Positions 128 to 41,512 of a stretch of DNA of 51,153 nucleotides are shown in pieces. The translations under genes were made by a program, and so were the position numbers. Positions within the stretch are counted from its first letter, which is position 1, and each line of letters starts with the position of its first letter. The notes under the pieces were generated by a model. It was not told the origin of the DNA. It saw only the letters and a program-made list of their open reading frames with translations, and ran no database searches. This DNA comes from Bacillota bacterium (GTDB lineage: Bacteria > Bacillota > Bacilli > Alicyclobacillales > Alicyclobacillaceae), in NCBI GenBank assembly GCA_027336365.1, contig DAHWFY010000002.1:1-51153 (forward strand). Direction: 5' to 3'.

Positions 128-269
128 CTATCCCAGTAAATACAATAACGTGGATTTACCTTCCCTGCTGGTGCCGCTAACAGCGGCATGAGGGTCTATC
201 CCAGTAAATACAAGTTTGTGGATTTACCTTCCCTGCTGGTGCCGCTATCAGCGGCATGACGGTCTATCC
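128..269 (+). repeat. Family A repeat, head-to-tail dimer (128-195, 196-263) closed by CTATCC
   Basis: Two 68-bp units, 62/68 identical: CTATCCCA-GTAAATACA-N6-TGGATTTAC-CTTCCCTGCTGG-TGCCGCT-AWC-AGCGGCA-TGASGGT. Confidence 0.95.
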
Positions 270-325
270 TGAACATGTAACTCTGCTCTCAGTTGTTCTC
301 AGTGGTAAACTTGCTCTGACATCAC

Positions 326-1924
326 TCAGCGCGTGCGGTTGCGCGCCTGCGGTTGTGAGCGTGGTTTGGCCGGTTCCATATTTAAGCGCGCCCCGTTGAA
401 ACGGCTTTGTCGCAAGGCTTCGTAAACAAAAGGTGCCGATTCTTGTTCTATTTCAACAAAAGTAAAACGGTCGAAGATGTCGATTTTCCCCACAGCCTGT
501 CCGGGAATTCCAGCCTCCTCAGCAATCATTCGGACCACATCCGCAGGACCAATTTTTGCGCTGCGCCCAATGTTCACAAAAAACCGAACCATGCCGGGAG
601 TCGCGCCTGTGTCCCCAAAATCATAGTCTTTCTCGTCTTTATCCTCCAGTTCACCGGCAGATGAAAGCTTCAATGCCGCACAAGCCACATCAATGGGGTC
701 ATATTCATCCACAATGCTGCCTAAAATTGCTCGATAGTGACCTAACCCACCCTCTTGAATGGTTGCAATCAAACGATCTCGCCAAATCTCTGCCTGCCTT
801 TCTGCGACATCAGCCAGAGACGGAACTTCTTTTCCCTCCATCCTTGTTTTGGTTTCCCGTTCTATTTGCTTGAGTAACTTAAATTCCCGCGGGGTAACCA
901 AGGTAATGGCCAATCCTCGCTTGCCCGCCCGACCTGTGCGGCCAATTCGATGCACATAGGACTCCGGGTCTTGGGGAATGTCATAGTTAATGACGTGGGT
1001 TATATTTTCCACATCAAGACCTCTGGCTGCCACGTCCGTTGCCACCAGCAGTTCCACTTCCCCTGTACGGAATTTCTTCATCACTCGGTCTCGCTGGGCC
1101 TGGCTCAAGTCTCCGTGCAAGCCATCCACAAGATATCCCCGAGCCAAAAGAGCCTCCACTAATTCATCCACCCCACGTTTGGTCCGGCAAAAAATGATAC
1201 CCAGTTGTACCTCTTCACTGTCTACTACTCGGCATAGACTGTCTAATTTGTTTCGTTCCAAAACCTTGTAGTACACCTGATCCGTCAGTGGAACCGTAAG
1301 TTCACCCCGATTGACCGTGACATGCTGCGGATTATGCAAGTAACGGGTGGCCAAGCGACGGACCTCGTCGGGAAAAGTTGCCGAAAACAGCATCGTCTGC
1401 CGTTCACTGGGTGTGTGACTGAGAATAGACTCAATGTCCTCGATAAATCCCATATCCAGCATCTCGTCCGCCTCATCCAAGACCACTGCCCGCACTGCAC
1501 CCAGTTTCAGTGTTCCTCGCCGAATATGGTCCAACACTCGCCCAGGTGTTCCAATGACAATCTGCACGCCTTGTTGTAACGCCCGGATCTGATGTCCGAT
1601 GGACTGTCCTCCGTAAATCGGCAAGGTATGCACCCGTTTGTATTTACCTATTTTCCTAAATTCACCAGCCACCTGAATTGCCAATTCTCGCGTAGGAGCC
1701 AACACCAATGCCTGTACTTTGTGGTCTGAAGACACCTGTTCTGCCAACGGAAGACCAAAGGCCGCCGTTTTTCCTGTACCTGTCTGGGCCTGCCCAATCA
1801 CATCTTTACCTTCTAAGATGAGTGGAATACATGCTGCTTGAATTGGCGACGGTTCCTCGTATCCCATATCATCGATAGCCTGTTGAATCCGTCTACTTAA
1901 CTGAAAATCTTCAAAAGTACTCAT
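326..1924 (-). CDS. DEAD-box ATP-dependent RNA helicase with C-terminal DbpA-type RNA-binding domain (CshA/DeaD-like)
   Basis: Q motif, AQTGTGKT, PTRELA, DEAD, SAT and HRIGRTGR motifs; ATG at 1924 preceded by AAAGGTGAG. Confidence 0.93.
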   Translation of the reverse strand: MSTFEDFQLSRRIQQAIDDMGYEEPSPIQAACIPLILEGKDVIGQAQTGTGKTAAFGLPLAEQVSSDHKVQALVLAPTRELAIQVAGEFRKIGKYKRVHTLPIYGGQSIGHQIRALQQGVQIVIGTPGRVLDHIRRGTLKLGAVRAVVLDEADEMLDMGFIEDIESILSHTPSERQTMLFSATFPDEVRRLATRYLHNPQHVTVNRGELTVPLTDQVYYKVLERNKLDSLCRVVDSEEVQLGIIFCRTKRGVDELVEALLARGYLVDGLHGDLSQAQRDRVMKKFRTGEVELLVATDVAARGLDVENITHVINYDIPQDPESYVHRIGRTGRAGKRGLAITLVTPREFKLLKQIERETKTRMEGKEVPSLADVAERQAEIWRDRLIATIQEGGLGHYRAILGSIVDEYDPIDVACAALKLSSAGELEDKDEKDYDFGDTGATPGMVRFFVNIGRSAKIGPADVVRMIAEEAGIPGQAVGKIDIFDRFTFVEIEQESAPFVYEALRQSRFNGARLNMEPAKPRSQPQARNRTR

Positions 1925-1959
1925 AATCTCACCTTTCTCATTGTGGAACCCACACACAC

Positions 1960-3222
1960 TCAGGTCCCGCTGGTTTCCATTTCAAGTCGTGACCACAGTT
2001 GCCACAATAAATACTTAGCCGCCCGAATCCGGACTTGCTCCCGGGAGCCGCTCCAAATTCCCGAAAATGATAAGTCTCCAGCGGAGCTACTGATGGCAAA
2101 CCAAACCAACCCCACCGGTTTATCCGCAGTTCCCCCACCCGGTCCGGCAATCCCTGTGATGGAAATACCATAGCTGGCCCCCAAGAGTTTACGCACACCT
2201 CGCGCCATTTCCAGAGCCACCTGCTCTGAGACGGCCCCCCACCGTTCCAAGCTATCTTGAGAAACTTGCAAAGCTATGGCCTTTGCGGCATTCGCATAAG
2301 AAACAACGCCTCCCAAGAAATAGGCAGAACTTCCAGGAACAGAGGTAATCATAGAGGAAACAAGCCCGCCGGTGCAACTCTCAGCAATGGCTAAGCTGGC
2401 CCCTTGCCTCAACAGACGGCGACCGACCACAGAAGCGAGGGTATCTTCATCCGTGCCATAAATGTACTTGCTAAACAAAGAACGCAAGTATGTTTCAATG
2501 GGTTGAATGAGTCTATGCGCCTCCCTGGCATCCCGGCCATTCGCCGTTATCCGCAACAACATCTCTCCCTCGCCAGCCAGGGGAGCAACCGTCGGATTAC
2601 TGCTGGCCAGCAATTCAGGAATCTGTGCATCCACATCAGATTCACCAATGCCACAGAAATGCAATACACGGGACTCCAGGGAAACATCTAAAGGAAACAA
2701 CTTTTGCAACCTGGGAATGACCTCATTCTTCAACATCGGGGTCATCTCCAGAGGCGGTCCTGGTAGCAGAAAATAGTGTACCCCATCTACACTCACATAC
2801 TGCCCAGGTGCAGTTCCATTTGGATTTTCAATCCATTCACCGCCCTCAATGACCATGGCCTGCCGACGATTGCGTTCAGGAATGGCGCGGCGACGACGGT
2901 GAAAATACCTCTCCACGGTAGCCCAAGCATCCTCCCGAAAGGTCAGTTTCCGCTGCACGAACTGAGCCACAGCATCACGAGTCAAGTCATCCTGAGTCGG
3001 CCCCAATCCTCCGGTTAATATCACCAGATTGGAGCGAACAACAGCATTTTGCAATGCCCCGACAATGCGTTCCAAGTTGTCCCCCACAGCAGTGTGGTAG
3101 TATACATAAAATCCATGGGCAGCCAACTCTTGGGAAATCGTTCTCGCATGCGTGTTGGCAATTTGCCCGAGAAGAATTTCCGTCCCTACGCCAATATGCT
3201 CCGCTTGACAAATCGAGCTCAA
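1960..3222 (-). CDS. cinA: Competence/damage-inducible protein CinA (MoCF-like plus NMN deamidase domain)
   Basis: GTEILLGQIANT, GGLGPTQDDLT, AESCTGG, GAVS and SITGIAGPGGG motifs; follows pgsA. Confidence 0.95.
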   Translation of the reverse strand: MSSICQAEHIGVGTEILLGQIANTHARTISQELAAHGFYVYYHTAVGDNLERIVGALQNAVVRSNLVILTGGLGPTQDDLTRDAVAQFVQRKLTFREDAWATVERYFHRRRRAIPERNRRQAMVIEGGEWIENPNGTAPGQYVSVDGVHYFLLPGPPLEMTPMLKNEVIPRLQKLFPLDVSLESRVLHFCGIGESDVDAQIPELLASSNPTVAPLAGEGEMLLRITANGRDAREAHRLIQPIETYLRSLFSKYIYGTDEDTLASVVGRRLLRQGASLAIAESCTGGLVSSMITSVPGSSAYFLGGVVSYANAAKAIALQVSQDSLERWGAVSEQVALEMARGVRKLLGASYGISITGIAGPGGGTADKPVGLVWFAISSSAGDLSFSGIWSGSREQVRIRAAKYLLWQLWSRLEMETSGT

Positions 3223-3267
3223 TCCATCCCCCTCAATTCATCCCGACGATTCCCCAATTCTCCCATA

Positions 3268-3849
3268 TCATTCCTGAATCACTTCTTTATTCTTAACGAA
3301 ATAGTCGATTCCCGACCATACGGTAATCACCACCATCACATATACAGCTAACTGGTCGAGAGGAAAGTGAATCAGAGAAAAGGGAAAATTGTTCAGCATC
3401 AGCGCCACCATGGTCACAATTTGCACGGCGGTCTTCCACTTCGCCATGCGGCTGGCCGCAATGACCAGACCTTCCACGGCAGCCACCAAACGCAATCCGG
3501 TCACGGCAAACTCCCGACTGATAATGAGAATTGCAACCCAAGCGGAAAGACGTTGCATTTCCACAAGACTAATCAGGACTGCAGAAATAAGCAATTTATC
3601 GGCAATGGGATCCAAAAACTTGCCAAAGTTGGTGACCAGTTGTCGTTTTCGAGCAATGTATCCATCCAGTCCGTCTGTGCTCGCGGCCAAAATGAACACC
3701 AGAGCAGCAATCATTTCACTGCCAGTTGTGGTACGGTGATTGATGGTCACTGTCCAAAAATCGTAGCGAATCAACAACAAAAAGGTCACAACGGGCACCA
3801 AAAAGATTCTGGCTAGCGTAATCCGGTTAGCCAGATTCACCCATTCCAC
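3268..3849 (-). CDS. pgsA: CDP-diacylglycerol--glycerol-3-phosphate 3-phosphatidyltransferase
   Basis: NxITLARI and DGLDGYIARK...GKFLDPIADK CDP-alcohol phosphotransferase motif. Start could be the GTG at 3840. Confidence 0.95.
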   Translation of the reverse strand: MEWVNLANRITLARIFLVPVVTFLLLIRYDFWTVTINHRTTTGSEMIAALVFILAASTDGLDGYIARKRQLVTNFGKFLDPIADKLLISAVLISLVEMQRLSAWVAILIISREFAVTGLRLVAAVEGLVIAASRMAKWKTAVQIVTMVALMLNNFPFSLIHFPLDQLAVYVMVVITVWSGIDYFVKNKEVIQE

Positions 3850-3976
3850 TCCCCATTCCCAACAAATTGCAGTGATTGTTCATCCCAGACCGCACGCCAC
3901 CTGTGGGTTCTACTAGTATAATCGTTTCAGTAAAAGCCTGTAAAGGCGCTGGCAAATATCGAATCTCCACGCGAAC

Positions 3977-4471
3977 CTACGATCGATAATTAGCAAATTG
4001 CAAAGGAATAGGCAAATCCATTTGCTCAAGTAACTGAATGACAGCTTGTAAGTCGTCTTTGCTCTTCCCGCTGACTCGCACCTGGTCTCCTTGAATGGAA
4101 GCCTGTACCTTCAACTTGGAATCTCTTACGGCTTTGGTAATCACCCTGGCCGTCTCTTGGTCAATTCCTTGCTGCAGAGAAATTCGTTGTCGCACGGTAC
4201 CTCCCGTTGCCGATTCCGTTTTTCCTCTTTTCATGGCCTTGAGAGACACCCCGCGTTTAACAAGTTTCGATTCCAAAACATCCGTCAAGGCAGACAACTT
4301 GTAGTCGTCGTCTGCCCACAACACCAGTTCAGTGTCATCGAAATCTATTTTGCACTTCGTCCCTTTAAAGTCAAAACGAGTCTGGATCTCCTTACGTGCC
4401 TGCCCCACCGCATTGCTCACCTCTTGCATATCCACTTCCGAAATCACGTCGAAAGACGCCTCTTTAGCCAT
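3977..4471 (-). CDS. yajQ: YajQ family nucleotide/c-di-GMP-binding protein
   Basis: SFDVISEVDMQEV...RFDFKG...KVQASIQGDQVRVSGKSKDDLQ; ATG at 4471 with GAGGTG RBS (164 aa). Confidence 0.93.
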   Translation of the reverse strand: MAKEASFDVISEVDMQEVSNAVGQARKEIQTRFDFKGTKCKIDFDDTELVLWADDDYKLSALTDVLESKLVKRGVSLKAMKRGKTESATGGTVRQRISLQQGIDQETARVITKAVRDSKLKVQASIQGDQVRVSGKSKDDLQAVIQLLEQMDLPIPLQFANYRS

Positions 4472-4518
4472 GTGCAATCCCACCTCTTGTAACATCCCAG
4501 AAACTCCTGAAATCATTG

Positions 4519-5541
4519 TCAGGACTGAGTCTTTTGGAACACTACGGTCATCACTCCAGAACCCGTTTGAGGCAATTGCACCAATTGTCCGTTGACGCTC
4601 ATGGTCACCACAGGTGCATTGCCCATATACACTTGCAGGGACCGCTGTGCTGACCAAGTTCTCGACTGCCCTTGGGCCACCGTGTCATTCCCGTCGATGA
4701 CTTGACCATCTGCCGTTACTTTCAGCCAACACGTCCCTTTATCGGCGTTTAACACCACGGACAAAGGTTGACTGCTAGAAACATCAAATACCTGAGTTCC
4801 ATTCTGAAAGGGCAACGCTGTTACTTTAACCGCCGAGGCAAGGTTCCCCCCACTGGTATTGGCGGCGGAATTATTGACTGAGTTGGTGCCGTTGCCCACG
4901 ACATTGCCCGTTGGCCGAGTGGAAGAAAGGCCATTTCCAGAAGCTTTATTCGTCGTGGACACCCCTTGATTTCCCACAACTCCATTGGGCGGGCCAGAAA
5001 CCGCTCTGCTGTTTCCATGGTAACTCAGTAACCACCAAGCACCACCCAGCACGGCAAGGGCTAAAGCCACCGCTCCAGCTTGCCCTAACAGACCCCTACC
5101 TCCGCGTCTGGACCTAGTGGGTCGAGCCATGCTGGTTCCCCGTTTTGAACGAGCACCCAACGGATGGGTTGGCTCTCGCTGCTCTCGATTCCGAGAAACC
5201 ATGTCCACTCCAGGAAGTGTGGATGGCGAAGGGGATGGAGAGGATGAAGGGGATATTGGCGGTGCGCTGGACACCCCATGAAGCGGGTCTGCAGACGGCT
5301 CCAGCGAAACGGCCTTGTCAACGTACTCTGCAAGTAACCGTCCTCCATCCAGCCCCAGATACTCGGCGTAACTGCGTACAAAGCCCCGAGCATAAACCTC
5401 GCCCGGTAATACGGACCAGTTACCCATTTCCAGGGCCTCTAAATAGCGTTTACGAATCTTCGTTTGATTTTCAACGTCCTCCAAAGTCATTCCAAGACGT
5501 TCCCGCTGATTCTGCAATGCTTTCCCTAATTCATCCAACAT
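4519..5541 (-). CDS. rodZ: RodZ/YmfM-type membrane protein (HTH, TM helix, DUF4115-like C-terminal domain)
   Basis: TKIRKRYLEALEMG..LPGEVYARGFVRSYAEYLGLD HTH; one TM helix; CWLKVTADG...GNA C-terminal domain; synteny with pgsA. Confidence 0.88.
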   Translation of the reverse strand: MLDELGKALQNQRERLGMTLEDVENQTKIRKRYLEALEMGNWSVLPGEVYARGFVRSYAEYLGLDGGRLLAEYVDKAVSLEPSADPLHGVSSAPPISPSSSPSPSPSTLPGVDMVSRNREQREPTHPLGARSKRGTSMARPTRSRRGGRGLLGQAGAVALALAVLGGAWWLLSYHGNSRAVSGPPNGVVGNQGVSTTNKASGNGLSSTRPTGNVVGNGTNSVNNSAANTSGGNLASAVKVTALPFQNGTQVFDVSSSQPLSVVLNADKGTCWLKVTADGQVIDGNDTVAQGQSRTWSAQRSLQVYMGNAPVVTMSVNGQLVQLPQTGSGVMTVVFQKTQS

Positions 5542-5626
5542 TATATCCCCTCCGAGCTAGCGGCAACTTTCCGGTAAAGCCACAAAATCGCCAGGACTCT
5601 CGTAGGCTGATCCTTGCTCTTGAGCA

Positions 5627-6433
5627 TTATTCTCCATTCCAACGCGAAGCCTCTTGCTCATACACTTCATATTGGATGGCCTCACCCGGATTGCGGCGAA
5701 GCTCAATCAGCAGGTCAAAAGCAGACCATCCGTAATGTGAATGTCGCACAAAGATGTCCGGATGTTCAATGACGATGGGAGCCGGAAGAGCCATTACCTC
5801 ATCCAGCAGGCTGAGATGCCGCTCGTCTCCCCGCAGTGTGGACACTGCCCCATCTATGATATAGACAAAGTTATCCGAAGACAATTCGTCCTCCGGTAGT
5901 TCACGCATGATGGTTTGTTTGAGCAAGGTGGACGAAACAAATGTCCAGCGTTTGTTGGCATACACGCTGGCCGCGACAATGGACTCGGTCTTGCCAACCC
6001 TTGGCTGCCCTCTGACACCAATCACCTGATGACCTGGACGCTTTAACAACTCGCCCAAGAAATCCACCAGAATTCCAAGTTCGTCTCGAACAAACCGATA
6101 TGTACGGGTCTCTGTATCACTGCGTTCAATGAAGCGTCCATGGCGAACCGCAATTCGATCTCTCAGTGAGGGTTTGCGCAAAGCCGTCAGTTCTATCTCC
6201 GGCATGGCCTCAATCATCCGACGCAGCACTTGTACGCTGTCTGGGCGCTGAGTTAACAATAGGAAACCGCGGCCTTCCTCTGAAACCCCTCCCAGTTGCA
6301 TGATGTTCAGCCCGAGCATGCCCAGCAAAGAAGCCACGTCTCCCAACAGTCCTGGTCGGTCGCGAATAATTTTATACTGGAAATAGATTTCCACAGGTTC
6401 TCCCGCTTCACCTGCTGTCCATGATTCACTCAC
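5627..6433 (-). CDS. ymfK: YmfK-like ACT-domain protein (DUF3388)
   Basis: YKIIRDRPGLLGDVASLLGML, RDELGILVDF and GQPRVGKTESIVAASVYANKRW motifs; GTG start at 6433 inferred. Confidence 0.85.
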   Translation of the reverse strand: MSESWTAGEAGEPVEIYFQYKIIRDRPGLLGDVASLLGMLGLNIMQLGGVSEEGRGFLLLTQRPDSVQVLRRMIEAMPEIELTALRKPSLRDRIAVRHGRFIERSDTETRTYRFVRDELGILVDFLGELLKRPGHQVIGVRGQPRVGKTESIVAASVYANKRWTFVSSTLLKQTIMRELPEDELSSDNFVYIIDGAVSTLRGDERHLSLLDEVMALPAPIVIEHPDIFVRHSHYGWSAFDLLIELRRNPGEAIQYEVYEQEASRWNGE

Positions 6434-6476
6434 GCCATCACATCCATTTTGGTCAAATAGCCATCCTTGACTTGTT

Positions 6477-7766: not shown

Positions 7767-7834
7767 GGATTGACCCTAACTCTTGCGTTTCAGCAATCAA
7801 GTCCACATAATGAAAGGTGAAGAGGTGGATTAGC

Positions 7835-8170: not shown

Positions 8171-8192
8171 GATACGGGGGTTCTGTGTCCTG

Positions 8193-12426: not shown

Positions 12427-12487
12427 CGTAGACACTCCTTGTCTTGCCAAAAAACCTTTCACAACTTCACACGACTCTTCTTTAGTA

Positions 12488-12581
12488 GTGCGTGTTCGGA
12501 TAGGAATGAGGTCAGCCCCAAGCAGTGCGATGAAGTCAGCCCAGAATGCGCACTGGGTCTGCTCCCTTTCCGGACAACCTC
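12488..12581 (+). mobile_element. Family B MITE, internally deleted copy flanked by TA
   Basis: First 66 nt are 54/66 identical to 17392-17457; ends in CCCTTTCCGGACAACCTC; TA at 12486-12487 and 12582-12583. Confidence 0.8.
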
Positions 12582-12671
12582 TAGTATGAAGTATGATGAT
12601 TCAACACATACATGAGTGATATCATTTGACCGCTCCATTCATCGCGTTTCCCCATCCGGAACATGCAAAGC

Positions 12672-14602: not shown

Positions 14603-14676
14603 TTATCCAGTAAATACAATAACGTGGATTTACCTTCCCTGTTGGTGCCGCTAACAGCGGCATGACGGTCTATCCC
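14603..14676 (+). repeat. Family A repeat copy in the rnj leader
   Basis: TATCCAGTAAATACAATAACGTGGATTTACCTTCCCTGTTGGTGCCGCTAACAGCGGCATGACGGTCTATCC; TATCC at both ends. Confidence 0.95.
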
Positions 14677-14910
14677 TTAGTGTCTTAAACCCAGACGAAT
14701 AGAAAGCCAGACATCCCTCATCCGTGTCCGACGGTGCTGTCGAAACCTGTCAACTTCCTGCCGTTGCGACAGCCATTTCTGTTTTCGCTTTTCAACCCGC
14801 CAAACCATCAGACTCATGGCCTGTTCAACCCGAGTACAGACCAATGACCTGCCGCTCTCGTCCTGTGGTTGTGATTTGGTTTTCAAAGCCGCACCAGTCA
14901 CTCGTGTTTT

Positions 14911-14939
14911 ATTATACTCACCCGTCAAGGTTCATACAA
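14911..14939 (-). promoter_or_regulatory. SigA-type promoter for rnj
   Basis: TTGTAT-17 nt-TATAAT on the minus strand. Confidence 0.65.
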
Positions 14940-14940
14940 C

Positions 14941-14983
14941 AACAAAACGCCCCTTATCCCTTGAACCAGGGATGAGGGGCGTT
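14941..14983 (-). terminator. Intrinsic terminator downstream of dapA
   Basis: Minus strand AACGCCCCTCATCCCT/AGGGATAAGGGGCGTT stem followed by TTGTT. Confidence 0.75.
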
Positions 14984-15003: not shown

Positions 15004-15118
15004 AGAGACCTACACGCCGCTGATAGCGGTGCCTATCCAGTAAATACAATAACGTGGATTTACATTCCTGCTGGTGCCGCTAACAGCGGCATGAAGGCCT
15101 ACCAGAAATGTAAATACA
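15004..15118. repeat. Family A cluster: inverted half copy (15004-15033), full copy (15033-15105), stub of a further unit (to 15118)
   Basis: AGAGACCTACACGCCGCTGATAGCGGTGCC resembles the reverse complement of the GC-hairpin half; then CTATCCAGTAAATACAATAACGTGGATTTACATTCCTGCTGGTGCCGCTAACAGCGGCATGAAGGCCTA; then GTAAATACA at 15110-15118. Confidence 0.88.
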
Positions 15119-17326: not shown

Positions 17327-17391
17327 GATACCTTCTCCCAGCTCCCAAAACGCTTGTCTTTAAACTGTAGACTGTGCAGGATTGCCTTTTA

Positions 17392-17546
17392 GTGCGTGTC
17401 CGGAAAGGGGTCTGGTCAGACCCAAGCAGTGCCAGGAGGCCAGCCCAAAATGCGCACAGAGCGTACGTTTTCGGTACGTGAAGGAGCATTTTGGGCGACG
17501 ACGCAGCAATGCGCCGGGGAGTTCTGACCCCTTTCCGGACAACCCC
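17392..17546 (+). mobile_element. Family B MITE, most intact copy (~155 bp)
   Basis: Perfect 16-bp subterminal inverted repeat TGTCCGGAAAGGGGTC (17397-17412) / GACCCCTTTCCGGACA (17526-17541); internal stem GCCCAAAATGC/GCATTTTGGGC; ends 2 nt from the asd stop codon. Confidence 0.85.
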
Positions 17547-19293: not shown

Positions 19294-19380
19294 TTGAACA
19301 TCGAGACTTCGGTGGGGGAGTCTACCCCCACCGAAGCAGGGTACGGAGTTCCACTCCCACTTGTAGAAATAGGAGTCTCA
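19294..19380. mobile_element. IS200/IS605-derived non-autonomous palindromic element (PATE/MITE-like remnant)
   Basis: Perfect 12-bp stem CTTCGGTGGGGG/CCCCCACCGAAG (19307-19336) followed by a degenerate ACTCCCACTT-GTAG-AAATAGGAGT hairpin; resembles Firmicutes IS200/IS605-type end repeats as recalled. Confidence 0.5.
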
Positions 19381-19397
19381 CATGTGGATCAATGGCC

Positions 19398-19462
19398 AAT
19401 CCAGTAATTACAGTAGATTCACAATCCTTGCTGGTGCCGCAAACAGCGGCATGAGGGTCTAT
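19398..19462 (+). repeat. Degenerate family A copy overlapping the spoVFA stop codon
   Basis: ATCCAGTAATTACAGTAGATTCACAATCCTTGCTGGTGCCGCAAACAGCGGCATGAGGGTCTAT; CTA at 19459-19461 is the TAG stop. Confidence 0.88.
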
Positions 19463-23412: not shown

Positions 23413-25521
23413 TTATTCCACTCCACCGGTGCGAACGACGCTCCGCTGAGACTTAAGGACCTCTTTGCGCGATAAATTGATTCGTCCCTGATTGTCAATT
23501 TCAGTGACCTTCACCGAAATTTCATCCCCCACGTGACAGATATCCTCCACCTTATTCACACGACTGATGTCCAGTTGCGAAACGTGAACCAGTCCTTCCT
23601 TTCCGGGCAGGACCTCCACAAAAGCGCCATACTTCTCCACACGGGTAACCTTGCCCACATAAGTCTTCCCCACTTCCACATCCCGTGTGATGTTGAGAAT
23701 TTGTTCCTTGGCACGATAGGCTCCCTGAGCATCTGTTCCGGAAATGAATACTCGTCCGTCCTGTTCAATATCAATTTTGACTCCTGTTTCTTCGATAATT
23801 TTATTAATCACGCGCCCCCCAGGTCCAATAACCTCACGAATTTTGTCCGGAGCAATGGTCAACGCAATCACTCGTGGTGCGTAGTTGGACAACTCTTGCC
23901 TGGGTTGGGCGATAGCCATTGACATTTTGTCCAGAATAAACATTCGCCCATTGTGCGCTTGACGCAAGGCCCGTTCCAGAATCTCGCGGTCAATCCCCGA
24001 GATCTTAATATCCATCTGCAGAGCGGTGACTCCCTTGGCGGTCCCCGCCACTTTGAAATCCATATCCCCCAGATGATCTTCCAGGCCTTGAATATCTGTC
24101 AAAATCGCAACCCTGTCTCCTTCCTTCACCAACCCCATGGCAATCCCGGCCACCGGTGCCTTGATGGGTACACCGGCATCCATCAAAGCCAGGGTACTGC
24201 CACAAATGCTCGCCTGAGAAGAGGAGCCATTGGACTCCAAAACTTCGGAGACCACGCGGATGGCATAAGGGAATTCTGACGGGGACGGAATGACTGGATC
24301 AAGAGCGCGCTCTCCCAACGCGCCGTGGCCAATATCACGACGACTGGGAGCCCGTAAGGCTCGTGCCTCGCCCACACTGAAAGGAGGAAAGTTGTAGTGG
24401 TGCATATATCGATTGGACTCTTCCAGGCCCAGTCCATCGAGGATTTGCTCATCTCCTAAGGCTCCCAAGGTGCAAACCGACAATGCTTGAGTTTGACCGC
24501 GAGTAAACAGCCCAGATCCGTGCGCCCTGGGTAACAGACCGATTTCACAATGAATGGGTCGAATCTCATCCAATTTTCGTCCGTCGGCACGTATGCCATC
24601 TTCCAAGATGGCGCTACGCACTTGCTCTTTCAAAATGGTATGAATCACCTCGCCAATCTCTTGCGAATGCTCGGGAAAGGACTCAGCAAAGTGTGCCTGA
24701 ATTTCCTCTGCCACCGCTCCCATGGCCTCTTCTCTGGCCAACTTGTCGGAGTTTCGCACGGACTTGGCAATCATGTCTGTGCCATAGTCGCGCACCTGTA
24801 AGGCCAAGGCAGGGTCCGGTGCCTTTAACACCACCTCCCGCTTATTCCCACCGACCTTGGCAGAAAATTTTTCAATTTCAGTAATAATTTGGCGAATGGC
24901 CTCGTGACCAAAAAAGATGGCTTCAAGCATCTTTTCTTCCGAAATTTCATTCGCTCCCGCCTCCACCATGACAATGGCGTCCCTCGAACCAGCCACCGTC
25001 AGATGTAATTCACTTTGAGCAATCTGTCCCACCGTGGGATTGATGACCAACTCTCCGTCCACAAGACCCACAATCACTCCGGCAATGGGTCCATTAAAAG
25101 GAACATCCGAGATGGTCAGAGCCGCCGAGGTTCAAATCATAGCGGCCATTTCCGGCGCACAGTCTTGGTCTACCGACATGACAATATCCACTACCTGAAC
25201 ATCATTGCGGAAGCCCTCAGGAAACAAGGGACGAATGGGCCGATCAATGAGGCGCGACGCCAAAATGGCTTTTTCACTCGGCCTGCCCTCGCGTTTAATA
25301 AAACCTCCTGGAATTTTTCCCACCGCGTAAAACCGTTCCTCGTAATTGACCGTTAAAGGAAAAAAATCCAAGTCCTTGGGGTCCTTGGATGCGGTCACTG
25401 TAGCCAAAACCACCGTGTCTCCGTAGCGGACGTTCACCGCTGCAGTAGCCTGTTTGGCCAACTTTCCTGTTTCTAGAACCATTCGCCTGCCCGCCACAGT
25501 AAATTCATGGGACACTTCCAT
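23413..25521 (-). pseudogene. pnp: Polynucleotide phosphorylase with an in-frame TGA at codon 130 (nonsense lesion, readthrough or sequencing error)
   Basis: ORFs 25132-25521 and 23413-25077 share a frame; the junction reads [27 protein letters not shown]. Two RNase PH domains, KH and S1 are otherwise intact (702 codons plus stop). Confidence 0.9.
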
Positions 25522-34166: not shown

Positions 34167-34209
34167 GGAACGATTGCCCCCCCTCTCCCTTCCGCCCAGG
34201 GTCCTGCCC

Positions 34210-34683: not shown

Positions 34684-34795
34684 AGAGCTACCTCCTTCAA
34701 ACCTCGTCTAAACCCATCTCACGTTCCATAACGGCGGTTTTTGGGCAGACGAGCAATGCGCAGATCTGCACTACCCAAACTTGCCACATCATAGA

Positions 34796-34826
34796 GCGAA
34801 GAGTGGGGAAAACCCCCACTCTTCGC
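34796..34826 (-). promoter_or_regulatory. rimP-nusA leader hairpin
   Basis: Perfect 13-bp stem GCGAAGAGTGGGG/CCCCACTCTTCGC; a similar AAGAGTGGG/CCCACTCTT hairpin precedes rimP in many Firmicutes. Confidence 0.65.
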
Positions 34827-34855
34827 GCACAACCTATACGAAGCCTAACGTTTCG

Positions 34856-34884
34856 AGTATAGCATTAACATCCACTGTGTGCAA
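34856..34884 (-). promoter_or_regulatory. SigA promoter of the rimP-nusA-infB operon
   Basis: TTGCAC-17 nt-TATACT with extended -10 TG. Confidence 0.7.
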
Positions 34885-34966
34885 ACTATGTTTGCCCACT
34901 CCATTGCATCTGTTTTGACTCCTGTGTTATGTTCAGTAACGCATATACCTAATGGAGGCCTTCAAT

Positions 34967-36814
34967 ATGGAAACCAGTGTCAATGAGCAGTTGCGCAATG
35001 TGGCGATTGTTGCTCACGTGGATCACGGGAAAACCAGTCTCGTGGACCAGTTGCTTCGCCAATCCGGCTTGTTTAGAAAGAATGAAACCCTCCAAGAACG
35101 GGCGATGGACTCGGATGACCTCGAACGGGAACGGGGGATAACCATTCTGGCAAAGACCACGTCGATTCCGTACCAGGGCATCAAAATTAATATTGTAGAC
35201 ACTCCCGGTCATGCAGACTTCAGTGGTGAAGTGGAACGAATTGTGAAAATGGTGGACGGAGTTCTGCTGGTTGTTGACGCCTTTGAGGGGGTGATGCCCC
35301 AGACGAAATTTGTGCTGCAAAAGGCCCTTGCCGAGGGTCTGACTCCCATTGTGGTGATTAACAAGATGGACCGGGACAATGCGCGCCCTGCGGAAGTTGT
35401 GGACGAAGTGCTGGACCTGTTCATCGAACTTGGGGCCAGAGAGGAACAATGTGAGTTCCCTGTAGTCTACACTTCTGCGGTAAAGGGAACAGCCAGCCTT
35501 GACCCCAACCAAACTGAGGGAAATATGGAGCCCCTGTTTGATGCCATTGTGCGTCACATCCCTGGCCCCACCGTTGAAGCCAATGGACCCCTGCAACTGC
35601 AGGTGGCCATTCTGGACTACAATGAATTTCTTGGACGCATTGGCATCGGAAGGGTTTTTCGCGGACAAGTCACTGCCGGCCAGAACGTGCAAGTGGTACG
35701 TCGGGATGGTTCCTTGCAACGAGGTCGGATTGCTAAACTGTACGGCTTCGAAGGACTGCGCCGCGTAGAAATTGACAGCGCCGAAGCGGGAGATATCGTG
35801 GCCATCACCGGTATTGAAGGTCTGACGGTTGGAGAAACCGTGTGTCACCCCGAAACCCCCGAGGCCCTACCTTTGGTGGGAATTGAGGAACCCACTTTGC
35901 AGATGGCCTTTCATGTCAACGATAGTCCTTTTGCTGGTCAAGAAGGGACCTATGTGACATCACGAAAATTACGAGAGCGTCTGTTTGCGGAATTAGAGTC
36001 CGATGTCAGCCTAAAAGTGGAAGAGACGGCAGACGCCGACACGTTTTTGGTCTCCAGCAGAGGAGAACTGCACTTATCCATCTTGATTGAAAAAATGCGT
36101 CGGGATGGCTACGAGATGCAAGTGGCCAAACCTCATGTCATTGTTAAAAAACTGCAGGGAACCACTCTGGAACCCTTAGAATGGTTGGTAGTGGAAACGC
36201 CCGGCGATGTGACTGGCAGTGTGATTGAGGCCTTGGGACTCCGCAAAGCCGAAATGCAGAAATTACAGCCCCTTGCAGATGGCTTGACGACACGCATGGA
36301 ATTCACCGCCCCCATGCGCGGTCTGATTGGCTTTCGAACGGAATTTTTAACGCTCACACGAGGTTATGGCATTATGCACCACAGTTTTCATGAATACGGA
36401 CCCTGGCGAGGAGAGGTCACCACACGGCGACAGGGAGTGCTAGTGGCCAGTGAGACAGGGGTGGCTACCGCGTATAGCCTACAAAATCTAGAAGACCGTG
36501 GTATCATGTTCATTCGGCCCGGCACACAAGTCTATGAGGGTATGATTGTCGGAGAGCATACTCGTGAGAACGACATTACCATCAATATTACTCGCCAAAA
36601 ACATATGACCAATGTGCGGTCTGCGACAAAAGAAGAGACTTCCCGTCTGAAGACTCCTCGTGAACTCACCCTGGAGTCCGCCATCACTTACATTGCAGAT
36701 GACGAATTTTGCGAAATCACACCCAAAAGTCTACGCCTGCGCAAACGGGTGCTAAACAAGAGTGAACGGGAAAAACAGTCGCGACGCAGCAAAACAGCCA
36801 CCATGGCGGAATAA
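34967..36814 (+). CDS. typA: Translational GTPase TypA/BipA
   Basis: [42 protein letters not shown] and [11 protein letters not shown] motifs; ATG at 34967 with GGAGG. Confidence 0.97.
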
Positions 36815-36828
36815 CAGAAAAACCTGAC

Positions 36829-36963
36829 GAGATTATCCGAGACGCATCCGGCCAACCCAAAAAGCCCCCAGTGGGGAGCTTTTTGGGTTGGTTCGCACTG
36901 CTCGGATTTGACCTCACCCCTTGTACTGTTTGGATTTGACCTCACCCCTTCCCGGGCACACAC
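36829..36963 (-). mobile_element. Degenerate inverted family B MITE with a 28-bp internal tandem duplication
   Basis: 36932-36963 matches the reverse complement of 17392-17423 at 25/32; GGATTTGACCTCACCCCTT occurs at 36904-36922 and 36932-36950. Confidence 0.65.
36852..36891. terminator. Probable bidirectional terminator hairpin between convergent typA and polC
   Basis: CCAACCCAAAAAGC-CCCCAGTGGGGA-GCTTTTTGGGTTGG. Confidence 0.75.
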
Positions 36964-36996
36964 CTTTAGGCGCTGATTTGGCTGTATGTCGTAGCT

Positions 36997-39900
36997 TTAG
37001 AACAACGAAAGTTGATTTGATTCGGGAAGACCGGTGAGACAACTCAGTCCCTCCAGGATATCTACGACGGCCCGAGAGACCTTGCTGCGAGATTGTAAGT
37101 CTTCCACCGAGAGAAAAGGACCTTCATCCCGAGATCTCTTCAAACTGCGGGCGGCGTTTTCGCCAATGCCAGGAACTGCGGCAAATGGAGGTAACAACGC
37201 CTGTTGCTCCATTTTGATGAGAAATCGTGTGGCATCGGAACGATACAGATCCAATGGCAGAAAGCGATACCCTCGCACAACCATTTCCAGGGTCAGTTCC
37301 AAGACCGTTTGTAGTCCCTTCTCTTTGGCAGAGGCAGTGTTGCCCTTGTCTTCAATTTCCTCGATTTTACGGACAATGGCTTCTTTACCTTGCACCATCA
37401 CCTCCATGTCAAAGTCGTCCGCCCGTACCGTAAAATAAGCGGCATAAAATGCCAGCGGATGATAGACCTTGAACCAGGCAATGCGCATTGCCATAAGCAC
37501 ATACGCGGAAGCGTGAGCCTTGGGAAACATGTACTTGATTTTTCTACCCGACTCTATGTACCACTCAGGGACCCCAAAGGAGCGCATGTATTGTGCGTCC
37601 TCCTCCTTGACGCCCTTGCCCTTGCGAATGGACTCCATGATTTTAAACGCCCGAGAGGGCTCAAGCCCCCGGTATATCAAATAAATCATGATATCATCAC
37701 GGGCACAGATGACCTCAGACAGCGTGGCTGTTTTACTGCGAATCAATTCCTGGGCATTGTTCAACCAAACGTCCGTACCGTGAGATAAACCGGAGATGCG
37801 CACCAACTCCGAAAAGGTGGTGGGACGAGTATCGTCCAACATTTGACGCACAAATTTCGTTCCAAACTCCGGGATACCATAGGTTCCTGTGGAAGAGCGA
37901 ATGTCTTCTGGGTTCACACCCAAGGTTTCTGTACCAGAAAACAGGCCCAGTACCGCCGGATCATTTAAGGGGATGGTCTTGGGGTCCACATCCGTCAGAT
38001 CTTGAAGCATGCGAATAACGGTTGGATCGTCATGGCCCAATATGTCAAGTTTCAATAGGCATTTTTCCAGGCCGGAATGATAGTCGAAATGGGTGGTCAA
38101 GGTACCTGTTGATTTGTCGTCAGCCGGATACTGCACTGGTGTAAAATCGTACACGCTCTTATGCCCAGGAACCACCACTTGTCCACCGGGGTGTTGTCCG
38201 GTGGTCCGCTTGACTCCGGTGCACCCTTGCACCAGCCGATCAATCTCGGCATTGCGCAGAGTCAAATTTCGCTCCTCGGCAAACTTTTTCACATATCCGT
38301 AAGCCGTTTTTTCTGCCACACCGGAAATGGTACCTGCACGAAACACGTGGTCTTTGCCAAATAACTCCTCCGTATAGCGGTGAGCTCGCGGCTGATACTC
38401 GCCAGAAAAATTCAAATCAATATCAGGCACCTTGTCCCCATGAAACCCCAAGAAGGTCTCAAAGGGAATGTCCTGCCCATCCCGAACCATGGATGTTTTG
38501 CACTGGGGACAGTCTTTCGGAGCAAGGTCGTACCCTGAGCCCACGGAGCCGTCCTCAATAAACTCGGTGTACTTGCACTGGGGACAGCGATAATGTGGAG
38601 GTAGCGGATTGACCTCGGTGATGTCCGTCATGGTGGCCACCAGGGAAGAGCCCACGGAACCCCGGCTGCCTACCAAGTACCCGTCCGACAGGGATTTCAC
38701 CACCAACTTGTGAGCAATCAAATAAATCACCGAGAATCCATGGTTGATGATGGAGTCCAGTTCTTTGCGCAGTCGTTTTTCAACAATCTCCGGCAAAGGA
38801 TCTCCGTACAGTTCGCGTGCCCTGATATAGGACATACTTTCCATTTCCACCTCGGCGCCCTCAATCACCGGTGTAAATAGTTCGTCCGGAATGGGTTTTA
38901 CTTCCTCAACTTGGTCCGCTATCGCCAGGGTATGAGTCACCACAACCGCCTCAGCATCTTCCCCTAAGTGTTGAAATTCGGTCAACATCTCGTCGGTGGT
39001 GCGCAGATGCATGTCTGGCTGCCATGCACTTCCGGCTCCGTGCTGAGATTGCAAAAACACCTCTCGATAGATTCCGTCCTGAGGGTTCAGGTAGTGCACA
39101 TCCCCGCTTGCAACCACCGGAATATTCAAATGTTTACCAACATCCACCAATTGCCGTTGGATTTCCATAACGCTTTCTCTACTCGCAATGGTTTTGTCTT
39201 GAATAAGATTTTCATAGTGACCCAGAGGTTGCAATTCCAAAAAGTCGTAAAATCGACATATTTGTTCAATCTCGTCTCTCCGTTTGCCCCTCAAGAAAGC
39301 CTGAAACACTTCTCCTTGCTGACACCCACTACCAATCAACAGTCCTTCTCGCAAGCGAACGAACTCACTGCGGGGAACCCGAGGCGTCCGGTATAGGTAA
39401 CGCGTCTGAGCCAAGGACACCAACTCATACAGGTTGCGCAGCCCAACCTGATTGCGAACTAGCACCGTGGCGTGAAAAGGACGCATGCGAGCGGTATCCA
39501 CCTCACCAGACAAGGCATTTAGAGCTGGCAAACTGTCAATTCCCCGTTCTTTTAAATCATTGAGCATATGCATGAATACCTTGGCAGTCGCTTCCGCATC
39601 CGCCAGAGCCCGGTGGTGATGAACCAACTGAACCTGAAACTTCTGGCTCAAGGTCTTTAGACGGTAGTTCTTTTCTCCTGGATACAGCAAGCGAGCCAGG
39701 GCCAAGGTATCCACCACCGGAGATTCCCAATCCGGCCAATTCAAACGAACAGCACACTGATTTAAGAATCCCACGTCAAATTCAGCATTGTGGGCCACCC
39801 AAACTGCCTCTGCCGCAAAGTTACGAAATCCCTCCAGAGCCTCAGCCAATTTTGGTTGACCTTCCACCATATTTTGTGTAATTCCTGTTAACTCTGAGAT

Positions 39901-41430
39901 TTTTGCTGATATCGAGCGTTCGGGATCAATCAGTGTGGAAAAGGTTCCGGTGATTTCTCCCTGTTCCACACGCACTGCAGCGATTTCAATTAAGGTGTCC
40001 TCACGGGCGTTTAATCCCGTTGTCTCCGTGTCAAACACCACATAAGCCGTTTCTTCCAACTGCCTGTTTTGCATACGGTAGATAATGGGCGTCCCATCAT
40101 CCACCATGTATGCCTCCACTCCCAGCAGAACTTTCACTCCGCGTTTACGGCCCGCCTCATAAGCGTCCGGAAAAGCCTGTACCCCCCCATGGTCTGTCAC
40201 AGCGATGGCCGAATGGCCCCACTCGGCCGCCTGTCGGATAAACTCCCCCACCGGGGTTACTCCGTCCAAAGTGGACATGGTGGTGTGCAGATGCAATTCC
40301 ACCCGTTTGCGCTCTGCCGTATCCAGGCGCAGAGGTGGATTCCCAGGTTGCATGTCCTGAACCATAAACACCAGTTCCCGAGTATAGGTGTCAAACTGCA
40401 CTTGTCCCTGCAAACGCACATATACACCGTTCTGCAAAGTCTCCATGGCCTGTTTCTGCCGTTCATCACGAACAAATAACTTGGCCGTAATGGAATCTGT
40501 ATCGTCCGTGATATTGAACTGTACCAGCACCCTACCGCTGGGCAAAACACGGGTGTCCAATTGAAATACCCGTCCCTCAATGACAGCGCTGCGCATCTCA
40601 TCCGCAATCTCGTGCACGCTCAAGGGAGGATTTCCAATCGCCCGACCCAACACCAACGGTTGTGCAGGTCCCTCATCCGTCCGCTCCCGTCGGTACTTGC
40701 GATAGGGACGTTCCTCGGCCGCTGGAATGCTTGTCTCTGGCGTTGGGGGATTGATGGTAGTCGCTGCTTGTACCCGATTGACCACACTGGCCACTTCTTG
40801 TCTCTCCTGTTGCTCCAATTGATTTCTAAGGGCTTCAACTTGCTCTCCGGTAGCCTGTACCTGCAAACGGCAAGATAGGGACAACCCCGCAGTCTCAACC
40901 GCGGTAGCAACAATCCAGTCGGGAAATCCTTTTTTTTGCAGTCTCCCTCGTTCCAGTTCGCTGCCCAAGAATATGCTTAACAAAAATTCAGCCCCATCAC
41001 TGGGGGCAGCAACCATTCCTTCGACCTCATGCGGACCGGACGTCAACCTGTCGGGTGGAGAAGTATCCGATACAACGGAGACCTGCCACTGTGCATGGCG
41101 TATGATTTGCCCAGCCACAGCCTCCTGAATGCTGTACAACTCCAACAGGGCCTGCACCACTGCTTCTATCTGCGCCTCATCCCATTCCACGGACCGTGTC
41201 TTGACCTGAATTGATGAGATATCGGCAAACTGTTCCCGATACTTGTCCGCCGCTGCTAAACGTTCTGCAAGCAACGACATCAGAACGCGGGCGTCAGAAA
41301 GTACGAGCGGAGCAAACTCAATCTCCAGTCTGCGAGTGCGCCGATGAACCACCACCTGGCGAATAAAATTTGGCACATGGGGCATTTCGTCCCCTGGTAA
41401 CGAATGGGATTGCTCGTCAAGCAAACTCAT
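36997..41430 (-). CDS. polC: DNA polymerase III PolC
   Basis: OB fold, PHP ELHLHT and TDHG, exonuclease VFDTETTG, GSRGSVGSS, Zn-finger CPQC, PDIDLNFSG and YMFPKAHA motifs. Confidence 0.98.
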   Translation of the reverse strand: MSLLDEQSHSLPGDEMPHVPNFIRQVVVHRRTRRLEIEFAPLVLSDARVLMSLLAERLAAADKYREQFADISSIQVKTRSVEWDEAQIEAVVQALLELYSIQEAVAGQIIRHAQWQVSVVSDTSPPDRLTSGPHEVEGMVAAPSDGAEFLLSIFLGSELERGRLQKKGFPDWIVATAVETAGLSLSCRLQVQATGEQVEALRNQLEQQERQEVASVVNRVQAATTINPPTPETSIPAAEERPYRKYRRERTDEGPAQPLVLGRAIGNPPLSVHEIADEMRSAVIEGRVFQLDTRVLPSGRVLVQFNITDDTDSITAKLFVRDERQKQAMETLQNGVYVRLQGQVQFDTYTRELVFMVQDMQPGNPPLRLDTAERKRVELHLHTTMSTLDGVTPVGEFIRQAAEWGHSAIAVTDHGGVQAFPDAYEAGRKRGVKVLLGVEAYMVDDGTPIIYRMQNRQLEETAYVVFDTETTGLNAREDTLIEIAAVRVEQGEITGTFSTLIDPERSISAKISELTGITQNMVEGQPKLAEALEGFRNFAAEAVWVAHNAEFDVGFLNQCAVRLNWPDWESPVVDTLALARLLYPGEKNYRLKTLSQKFQVQLVHHHRALADAEATAKVFMHMLNDLKERGIDSLPALNALSGEVDTARMRPFHATVLVRNQVGLRNLYELVSLAQTRYLYRTPRVPRSEFVRLREGLLIGSGCQQGEVFQAFLRGKRRDEIEQICRFYDFLELQPLGHYENLIQDKTIASRESVMEIQRQLVDVGKHLNIPVVASGDVHYLNPQDGIYREVFLQSQHGAGSAWQPDMHLRTTDEMLTEFQHLGEDAEAVVVTHTLAIADQVEEVKPIPDELFTPVIEGAEVEMESMSYIRARELYGDPLPEIVEKRLRKELDSIINHGFSVIYLIAHKLVVKSLSDGYLVGSRGSVGSSLVATMTDITEVNPLPPHYRCPQCKYTEFIEDGSVGSGYDLAPKDCPQCKTSMVRDGQDIPFETFLGFHGDKVPDIDLNFSGEYQPRAHRYTEELFGKDHVFRAGTISGVAEKTAYGYVKKFAEERNLTLRNAEIDRLVQGCTGVKRTTGQHPGGQVVVPGHKSVYDFTPVQYPADDKSTGTLTTHFDYHSGLEKCLLKLDILGHDDPTVIRMLQDLTDVDPKTIPLNDPAVLGLFSGTETLGVNPEDIRSSTGTYGIPEFGTKFVRQMLDDTRPTTFSELVRISGLSHGTDVWLNNAQELIRSKTATLSEVICARDDIMIYLIYRGLEPSRAFKIMESIRKGKGVKEEDAQYMRSFGVPEWYIESGRKIKYMFPKAHASAYVLMAMRIAWFKVYHPLAFYAAYFTVRADDFDMEVMVQGKEAIVRKIEEIEDKGNTASAKEKGLQTVLELTLEMVVRGYRFLPLDLYRSDATRFLIKMEQQALLPPFAAVPGIGENAARSLKRSRDEGPFLSVEDLQSRSKVSRAVVDILEGLSCLTGLPESNQLSLF

Positions 41431-41440
41431 GTTTCTTCTC

Positions 41441-41512
41441 CTATCTCAGTAAATACATTTATGTGGACTTACATCACTTGTTGGTGCCACCTTCAGCGGC
41501 ATGGATATCTCA
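41441..41512 (+). repeat. Degenerate family A copy abutting the polC RBS, flanked by TATCTCA direct repeats
   Basis: CTATCTCAGTAAATACATTTATGTGGACTTACATCACTTGTTGGTGCCACCTTCAGCGGCATGGATATCTCA. Confidence 0.85.

What the first reader, a model, noticed from the sequence alone, without database searches (positions are those of the whole stretch)
128..41512. Dispersed, co-oriented ~68-bp two-palindrome repeat (family A) in spacers of core operons
Seen: copies at 128-195, 196-263, 14603-14676, 15033-15105, 19398-19462 and 41441-41512, all intergenic and in the same orientation relative to transcription. Each has an AT-rich palindrome (GTAAATACA-N6-TGGATTTAC), a short linker and a GC hairpin (TGCCGCT-N3-AGCGGCA), bounded by a TATCC-like motif. 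There are no terminal inverted repeats, so it is not a classical DDE MITE, and there are no unique spacers, so it is not CRISPR. Copies range from near-identical to decayed, which suggests spread over a long period. Inference: an unrecognised REP-like non-autonomous mobile element or structured RNA element mobilised in trans. This is the best candidate in the window for an undescribed system.
Basis: partly seen in the sequence, partly recalled or inferred. Interest (0 to 1): 0.8.

Follow-up and report, generated by a model that had tools for sequence, protein, structure and literature searches.

The report
Miniature IS110 hitch-hiker, 370 copies
The repeat is a 67-68-base stub made of the two ends of an RNA-guided (IS110-type) jumping gene with the gene and its guide RNA cut out; it sits at about 320 places in this genome and likely spread by borrowing the enzyme of a full-length relative, which makes it an unusually small and abundant example of a known kind of selfish DNA.

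Summary
The repeat is real: six window copies, 373 in the genome (none in a shuffled genome), 319 loci, almost all intergenic. It is not a REP/HUH element or a new RNA. Read on the minus strand, each copy is the first 44 bp and the last 14 bp of an IS110-family insertion sequence (1,572 bp, DEDD recombinase, bridge-RNA-like left end; 24 copies in relative G046), joined by a 12-bp loop and bounded by an AG core. A congener has a precise empty site for one copy. Uniform co-orientation is a window effect (genome-wide 119 with, 63 against). In the parent clade the predicted target guide matches each insertion site, so bridge-RNA-guided mobilisation in trans is the likely mechanism. No intact helper is in this 83%-complete assembly. 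IS110-derived mini-elements are known (MITEPpu9). What stands out here is the minimal size, the copy number, and landing sites that resemble the element's own right end (GGAT-AG) rather than any target guide found. That hints at donor-loop ('half-match') insertion, but a lost helper with a matching guide fits about as well.

The parts
128..197 (-). Copy 1, core to core (68-bp unit plus one shared core); second member of a head-to-tail dimer
196..265 (-). Copy 2; the chromosomal sequence just outside its left core is identical to the parent IS donor guide/right end over 8 bases
   Evidence: parent right end
154..197 (-). Left-end part of copy 1: AG core, right-donor bases, GC hairpin (172-188), left copy of the 6-bp sub-terminal inverted repeat (154-159); same 44-bp length and motifs as the IS110 left end
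   Evidence: side by side with L077, L085, L089, L090, L226, L236
142..153 (-).
128..141 (-). Right-end part of copy 1: right copy of the inverted repeat (136-141), left-donor bases, AG core (128-129)
14603..14671 (-). Copy 3 (67-bp unit) upstream of the rnj-like gene; precise 67-bp empty site with one core in congener G001
15006..15032 (+). Inverted, truncated left end (GC hairpin only) abutting copy 4
   Evidence: (I3)
15033..15100 (-). Copy 4 (1-bp deletion), at the 3' end of the dapA-like gene
19397..19460 (-). Copy 5, decayed (5-bp deletion in the AT half, right core mutated), next to a family C repeat
41441..41510 (-). Copy 6, most diverged, between the polC-like and rseP-like genes

Best explanation
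Family A is a gene-less miniature of an IS110-group insertion sequence, consisting of that element's first 44 and last 14 bases joined by a short loop between two AG cores, and it was likely copied around the genome by the bridge-RNA-guided recombinase of a full-length relative acting in trans. Shown: the end homology, the cores, empty sites, the parent's DEDD recombinase, and the match of the parent's predicted guides to its donor end and insertion sites. Inferred: the helper's donor-binding loop pairs with the stub's two ends and joins them into a roughly 68-nt circle, probably single-stranded (copy-out), which is then inserted at an AG preceded by an (R)RAT-like sequence. Many landing sites look like the element's own right end, so insertion was likely often steered by the donor guide ('half-match') and not by a target guide, which would also explain the head-to-tail dimers. 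Confidence is about 0.9 for the IS110 origin, about 0.8 for IS110-driven spread, and about 0.45 for the donor-guided targeting step.
For: (1) A pattern for the GC-hairpin end matched 11 of 64 genomes of the order. In G046, G044 and G003 it is the left end of a 1.57-kb element with a 404-405-aa ORF: PF01548 + PF02371, NF033542 at 300 bits vs cut-off 140, aligned to IS621 including the D/E/D/D and serine motifs. (2) That element's right end matches the stub's other end, and the IS-IS junction in L086 reads like the stub's dimer junction. (3) Core: of 202 parsed single copies the left core is AG in 173; the right core is AG in 136, AA in 38, unparsed in 28. The G001 orthologue of copy 3 lacks exactly 67 bp and keeps one core. 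93.8 kb of G001 synteny covering 14 G000 loci holds one family hit, about 0.9 kb from the nearest orthologous position. (4) Parent clade: for 13 distinct predicted target guides, one site each, 43 of 52 bases before the core match their own guide (shuffle 25.2 +/- 3.2, max 38 in 10,000). The donor guide equals the right end 8/8 in 7 of the 10 where an end was scored. G046 sites: 16 of 24 GATT (its guide), 0 of 24 GGAT (three pairs share flanks). (5) Stub sites: GGAT is the top 4-mer, 32 of 152 singles, 66-fold over background; 14 of 35 outer dimer junctions; 9 of 14 free copies in another family's genus g21. None of the 13 target guides ends in GGAT. (6) Dimer partners differ as much as random pairs (7.5 vs 8.4 of 56, 33 dimers), which points to a second insertion at a resident end and not to local duplication. 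(7) Literature: a 22-bp donor works with bridge RNA supplied in trans (PMC11208160, passages); single-strand copy-out and LD-only half-match insertion (10.64898/2026.08.31.748434, abstract and sections 8-9).
Against: No intact cognate helper in G000 or G001 (0 matches at E<=1e-40): only a decayed 64-aa piece at 48%, and no bridge-RNA region. G000 is 83% complete, G001 98%. The G000 stub carries a changed inverted repeat (GTAAAT/ATTTAC) not seen in any parsed autonomous element (33 of 60 GAAAAT/ATTTTC, 23 with an imperfect pair), nor in 400 other genomes of the phylum. Only 1 of 14 loci could be resolved to the base; elsewhere intergenic divergence was too high. For the targeting step: only 21% of singles have GGAT (GAAT 18, CAAT 9, GATT 7 of 152), and CGGAAT fits the profile as well as CGGGAT (3.21 vs 3.18 of 6), so one or more lost helpers with such target guides remain possible. 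The g21 count is biased because the search pattern fixed the base next to the core. About 30 copies sit at one position of repeat family B, whose majority sequence has no AG core there: unexplained. A weak left/right flank covariation remains (position -3: 65 vs 52.8 +/- 4.8). The RNAalifold consensus of 11 left ends has only 4 of 40 pairs with two-sided change. No mobility experiment was done.
Confidence: 0.85

Rival explanations
1. Same IS110 origin, but every insertion was canonical: one or several helpers, now lost or unassembled, carried target guides near CGG(A/G)AT-AG, and the likeness of landing sites to the element's own end is a consequence of those guides. (This is a sub-case of the best explanation that differs only in the targeting step.)
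For: CGGAAT fits the flank profile as well as the donor-like CGGGAT. Minor classes GAAT, CAAT and GATT equal target guides of known relatives. Autonomous elements obey their target guide. Target guides vary freely in this clade (13 distinct).
Against: None of the 13 parsed guides, nor those read by eye, ends in GGAT, yet GGAT tops the list in two host families. A single guide gave 16 of 24 exact 4-mers in G046, against 32 of 152 here.
Confidence: 0.4
2. A REP/BIME-like element spread by an HUH (RAYT or IS200/IS605 TnpA) transposase acting on single-stranded hairpins.
For: Two DNA hairpins (z = -3.2 on the plus strand), dimers, intergenic location. One dimer lies just downstream of a Y1 tnpA on C327. 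g21 copies have GNA triloops (stability of such DNA loops is recalled).
Against: G000 has 3 Y1 matches; the two full-length ones are IS200/IS605 TnpA (153-154 bits vs cut-off 55; RAYT 40-43 vs cut-off 80), with their own different hairpins. The C327 dimer interrupts a deleted tnpB, and the paralogous element on C318 has no copy. Both ends and the core match IS110.
Confidence: 0.03
3. A domesticated cis-acting RNA or DNA structure (mRNA stabiliser or regulator) kept by host selection, whatever its origin.
For: Orientation bias 119:63 (p = 4e-5). Stem columns vary less (2-3%) than other constant columns (7%). The GC stem is fully paired in 9 aligned copies from four genomes plus this one, with one two-sided change.
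Against: Absent from orthologous sites in the congener. No Rfam family. No promoter- or terminator-like match around copies 3 and 4. Stem conservation is equally expected from selection for mobility or from hairpin self-correction.
Confidence: 0.06
4. An IS110 end-junction relic that was amplified by something other than IS110 recombination (hitch-hiking in the family B MITE, gene conversion, slippage).
For: No helper in the assembly. About 30 copies sit inside family B at a position without a core, many sharing an AA right core.
Against: About 90% of copies are outside family B. Copies inside B are not one clade (7.7 vs 8.4 +/- 0.6). Dimer partners are unlike each other. Free copies keep core-precise ends and a target preference.
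Confidence: 0.06

Closest known systems
MITEPpu9 / ISPpu9 of Pseudomonas putida KT2440 (IS110 family; PMC12288879, abstract and passages read)
   Same: Gene-less element bounded by copies of the two ends of an IS110; AG core; a hairpin in the left end; found alone and in tandem; proposed to move with transposase in trans.
   Different: MITEPpu9 carries the ssr9 small-RNA gene, has 8 copies, inserts in REP sites, has its helper in the same genome, and its minicircles were detected. Family A is 67-68 bp with no cargo, has about 370 copies, lands at GGAT-AG-like sites, has no helper in the assembly, and has not been tested.
IS621 and the IS110 group of bridge-RNA recombinases (PMC11208160, passages; PDB 8wt6)
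   Same: The parent has DEDD and Tnp domains, a long left end (251 bp) and a short right end (about 107 bp), a 2-bp core, and target and donor guides in the left end that match insertion site and right end.
   Different: The core is AG, not CT. There is a 6-7-bp inverted repeat whose left copy lies about 40 bp inside the left end, behind a GC hairpin. The parent's similarity to IS621 is remote (76.7 bits). Family A itself encodes neither protein nor RNA guides.
Classical TIR MITEs (for example MITEPye1, IS1182-related; PMC11578231, passages)
   Same: Short, non-coding, intergenic, high-copy, derived from an IS and dependent on it.
   Different: No terminal inverted repeats and no target duplication; the apparent CTATCC duplication is the core plus a target that resembles the right end.
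REP/BIME with RAYT (features recalled; PMC2817692 seen as a search listing only)
   Same: Hundreds of intergenic palindromes, dimers.
   Different: No RAYT in the assembly; arrays are head-to-tail only (52 of 52); ends are IS110-derived.

Membership tests
IS110-derived non-autonomous element (MITEPpu9 type) | Both ends homologous to the ends of an autonomous IS110 | tested here: met
   44-bp left end and 14-bp right end; the inverted repeat carries one two-sided change
IS110-derived non-autonomous element (MITEPpu9 type) | No recombinase gene | tested here: met
   unit is 67 or 68 bp (58 and 51 strict matches)
IS110-derived non-autonomous element (MITEPpu9 type) | Short core at both junctions, one core at the empty site | tested here: met
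   (left AG 173 of 202; right AG 136, AA 38, unparsed 28); one base-precise empty site; the other 13 loci were not resolvable to the base
IS110-derived non-autonomous element (MITEPpu9 type) | Joined ends match the donor guide of the parent's bridge RNA | tested here: met
   right-end 8-mers of the two commonest forms match the parent's predicted donor guide at 6 and 7 of 8 positions (compared by eye); the guide assignment is a prediction
IS110-derived non-autonomous element (MITEPpu9 type) | Cognate helper present in the same genome | tested here: inconclusive
   none in the 83%-complete assembly or in G001; a decayed fragment on C169; multi-copy ISs are often unassembled
IS110-derived non-autonomous element (MITEPpu9 type) | Recombinase-dependent circles and insertion | not testable with these tools
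   needs junction PCR or an in vivo assay
IS110 group (parent element) | DEDD RuvC-like domain plus Tnp domain with catalytic serine | tested here: met
IS110 group (parent element) | Left end longer than right end and holding target and donor guides that covary with site and end | tested here: met
   251 vs about 107 bp; 43 of 52 vs 25.2 +/- 3.2
IS110 group (parent element) | Bridge RNA transcribed and folded into two guide loops | tested here: inconclusive
   target guide lies in an unpaired loop, 4 of 40 pairs with two-sided change; no Rfam match; no expression data
Classical TIR MITE | Terminal inverted repeats and target-site duplication | tested here: not met
REP/BIME-RAYT | RAYT gene flanked by the repeats | tested here: not met
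   (assembly incomplete)
Rfam RNA family | Score above a family's gathering threshold | tested here: not met

The most novel reading that the evidence does not exclude
Family A is a natural minimal donor for bridge recombination: a 67-68-nt unit, too short to circularise easily as double-stranded DNA, that reached about 370 copies by single-strand copy-out and by insertion steered mainly by the helper's donor-binding loop. It would thus be a parasite that bypasses the helper's target programme, lands at sites like its own right end, and creates new landing sites with each copy (half of the non-coding GGATAG sites in the genome, 175 of 351, are now its own ends). Stub lineages with different internal loops in two host families all measure 70 bp core to core, which would mark a size floor for the reaction.
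Probability: 0.3. Interest if true: 0.62.

Novelty: new member of a known kind. Interest (0 to 1): 0.4.

Why it matters
As a kind it is known, so the 'undescribed system' claim falls. It still has value as a natural experiment on IS110 bridge recombinases, whose mechanism (cut-out versus copy-out, full match versus half match) is under debate in 2025-2026 papers. Several hundred independent insertions of a cargo-free 68-bp donor give a large in vivo record of target tolerance and a bound on donor size. The parent clade (AG core, freely varying target guide, nearly fixed donor guide, members in Bacillota including thermophilic and acidophilic hosts) is a candidate editing system. It also shows that REP-looking repeats without terminal inverted repeats can be IS110 stubs, which TIR-based MITE finders would miss.

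Tried and rejected
HUH/RAYT lead: the Y1 gene beside a dimer on C327 is an IS605 whose tnpB was interrupted; a g21 copy beside a tnpA (L062) was not pursued. Target-site duplication: left and right flanks covary only weakly once tandem and family-B copies are removed. The genome's own six PF02371 matches: the three scored against the parent recombinase are about 25% identical, none has family A ends, and the nearest copies are 2.1 and 15.8 kb away or not on the contig. Search for the helper: no bridge-RNA region in G000; no GTAAAT-type left end in 400 other genomes of the phylum; 76 genome loci, 80 metagenome loci and 2 viral loci gave no helper with a GGAT target guide (my parsers read only part of them, 49 left ends). 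Run X2, which holds a near-identical strain, has a 1,546-nt contig about 83% like the parent at 7 times the host depth; its target guide differs at the two positions shown and does not fit the flank profile, and its host is unknown. Strain polymorphism: X2 keeps copy 3; no joint skipping a family A copy was among those listed (tables were cut). No RNA holder listed. One search returned nothing because my pattern had the wrong length. The alignment misplaced the inverted repeat, so only the GC stem was counted. Literature: six searches listed no description of this repeat; ISfinder and supplements were not available or not read, so a database entry cannot be excluded. Papers seen: PMC11208160, PMC12288879, PMC11578231 and 10.64898/2026.08.14.744561 as passages; 10.64898/2026.08.31.748434 abstract and sections 8-9; 10.1101/2025.10.25.684509 abstract and section 5; PMC13626964 abstract only.
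Full report
Observation. The six copies are present as described. An HMM of them finds 373 hits in the 3.14-Mb assembly (339 near full length, 154 of 366 contigs) and none in a locally shuffled genome. They form 319 loci: 267 singles, 50 dimers and 2 trimers, all 52 arrays head-to-tail. With a simple gene caller, 3 loci overlap a gene, 44 are at contig edges, 60 lie between divergent and 30 between convergent genes, and of 182 between co-oriented genes 119 lie as in the window and 63 the other way. Uniform co-orientation is therefore a window effect over a 65:35 bias. Of 254 copies with a 56-bp core, 239 are distinct and 27 have an identical twin, which fits spread over some time. Rfam has no match. 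The window genes (names recalled from the translations: rnj, dapA, asd, dpaA/B, pnp, infB, polC) indicate a spore-forming Bacillota host.

What it is. A pattern for the GC-hairpin end matched 11 of 64 genomes of the order. In G046, G044 and G003 that hairpin is the left end of a 1.57-kb element with a 404-405-aa ORF, an IS110-family recombinase by Pfam, NCBIfam NF033542 and alignment to IS621. Read in the direction of that gene, which is the window's minus strand, family A is the element's first 44 bp (AG core, ACNNNCATGCCGC-loop-GCGGCACCA.CAG, then a 6-bp motif), a 12-bp loop, and the element's last 14 bp (the inverted copy of the motif, donor bases, AG core). In G000 it reads GTAAAT/ATTTAC, whereas parents and the stubs of genus g21 and one G001 copy have GAAAAT/ATTTTC. 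The two-sided change may reflect a pairing requirement, or simply self-correction of a short hairpin; I cannot tell which. Named relatives of the recombinase include Alicyclobacillus herbarius (91%), uncultured Alicyclobacillaceae (88-94%), Desulfallas and Paenibacillus (about 80%).

Mobility. The left junction has AG in 173 of 202 parsed singles; the right has AG in 136, AA in 38, and 28 were unparsed. In the congener G001 the orthologue of copy 3 lacks exactly 67 bp and keeps one core. Over 93.8 kb of G001 synteny covering 14 G000 loci there is one family hit, and it is not at an orthologous position; only copy 3 could be resolved to the base. The apparent CTATCC duplication is not a target-site duplication: flank covariation nearly vanishes once tandem and family-B copies are dropped, leaving one position at p = 0.007 that I cannot explain.

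How it likely works. The parent's 251-bp left end holds two guide-like stretches. For 13 distinct target guides, 43 of 52 bases before the core match their own insertion site (shuffle 25.2 +/- 3.2), and the donor guide equals the right end in 7 of 10 scored cases. G046 inserts after GATT, its guide, in 16 of 24 junctions. This is the IS621 pattern, where a 22-bp donor suffices if the bridge RNA comes in trans (PMC11208160, passages). The stub keeps the donor arms and so is a plausible substrate. A 68-bp double-stranded circle would be strongly strained (general knowledge), so single-strand copy-out or direct strand transfer, reported for IS621 and CazIS110-1 in preprints, is the likelier route; this step is inference. 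The stub's landing sites differ from the parents': GGAT-AG, the sequence of its own right end, is the top class in G000 (32 of 152 singles, 66-fold enriched; 14 of 35 outer dimer junctions) and in g21 (9 of 14 free copies, with 12 of 26 in tandem, pattern-biased), against 0 of 24 in G046, and no parsed target guide ends in GGAT. Dimer partners are as unlike as random pairs, so dimers arise by a second insertion at a resident end, and half of all non-coding GGATAG sites are now such ends. This fits left-donor half-match insertion (also 10.64898/2026.08.14.744561, passages). Against it, GGAT is only 21% of singles and CGGAAT fits the profile equally well, so lost helpers with matching target guides are about as likely.

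What does not fit. No intact helper or bridge-RNA region is in G000 (83% complete) or G001; there is a decayed fragment on C169. About 30 copies sit at one position of a second repeat, family B, whose common form has no AG there: 4 of about 90 empty copies have the matching variant, and the variants needed for many filled copies were not seen empty. Those copies are not one clade. The predicted RNA fold has little covariation. Nothing was tested by experiment.

Rivals. REP/RAYT fails: the Y1 proteins are IS200/IS605 TnpA, and the nearby dimer is an insertion into a broken tnpB. A host-selected RNA structure has only the orientation bias and stem conservation in its favour and the absence from orthologous sites against it.

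Known relatives and verdict. MITEPpu9 of Pseudomonas putida is a described IS110-derived mini-element with an AG core (PMC12288879). Unchecked notes of this scan report similar stubs in other genomes; they are not evidence, but they suggest the kind is common. Six literature searches listed no description of this family; ISfinder was not available. It is a new member of a known kind, notable for minimal size, copy number and donor-like landing sites. Interest 0.4.

Noticed in passing
window 17391-17545 (decayed copy 12486-12582): Family B: a roughly 155-bp MITE with terminal inverted repeats and a 6-7-bp target duplication; 246 blastn pieces, 42 near full length. The window copy is precisely missing in contigs of runs X1, X2 and X3 and in G001. 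Its transposase was not identified.
   Followed up: partly
G000, about 30 loci (list): Family A copies sit at one fixed position inside family B, where the majority B sequence lacks the AG core; many share an AA right core, yet they are not one clade. Unexplained.
   Followed up: partly
window 19294-19392: Family C: a roughly 100-bp repeat with a hairpin, 26 blastn pieces in G000, replaced by a shorter sequence in run X2.
   Followed up: no
window 14708-14978: Intergenic stretch between the dapA-like and rnj-like genes is 88% identical in G001, above the flanking genes (78-81%); possible conserved leader; no Rfam family.
   Followed up: partly
window 23413-25521: The pnp-like gene is split into a 129-aa and a 554-aa ORF: frameshift, stop or assembly error.
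   Followed up: no
L325:1801-1831 and L326:1425-1455; also L082: Left ends of the parent clade with the target-binding part deleted and only the donor guide left, followed by a truncated recombinase; L082 lacks both guides but keeps the ORF.
   Followed up: no
G000 C10:9475, C166:13737, C248:362, C300:37087: Four symmetrical left-end/left-end palindromes of the GC hairpin, perhaps template-switch products.
   Followed up: no
L025, L030, L033, L062 (genus g21): Longer (about 150-bp) multi-hairpin elements with the same two ends, often in tandem with the short form.
   Followed up: no
L081, L214, L215, L225 (G046): The parent IS has inserted into the 3' end of its own recombinase gene (3 junctions) and into another copy's left end.
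   Followed up: no
G000 C327:7636-8333: An IS605 element with intact tnpA whose tnpB is deleted at the point where a family A dimer sits.
   Followed up: partly
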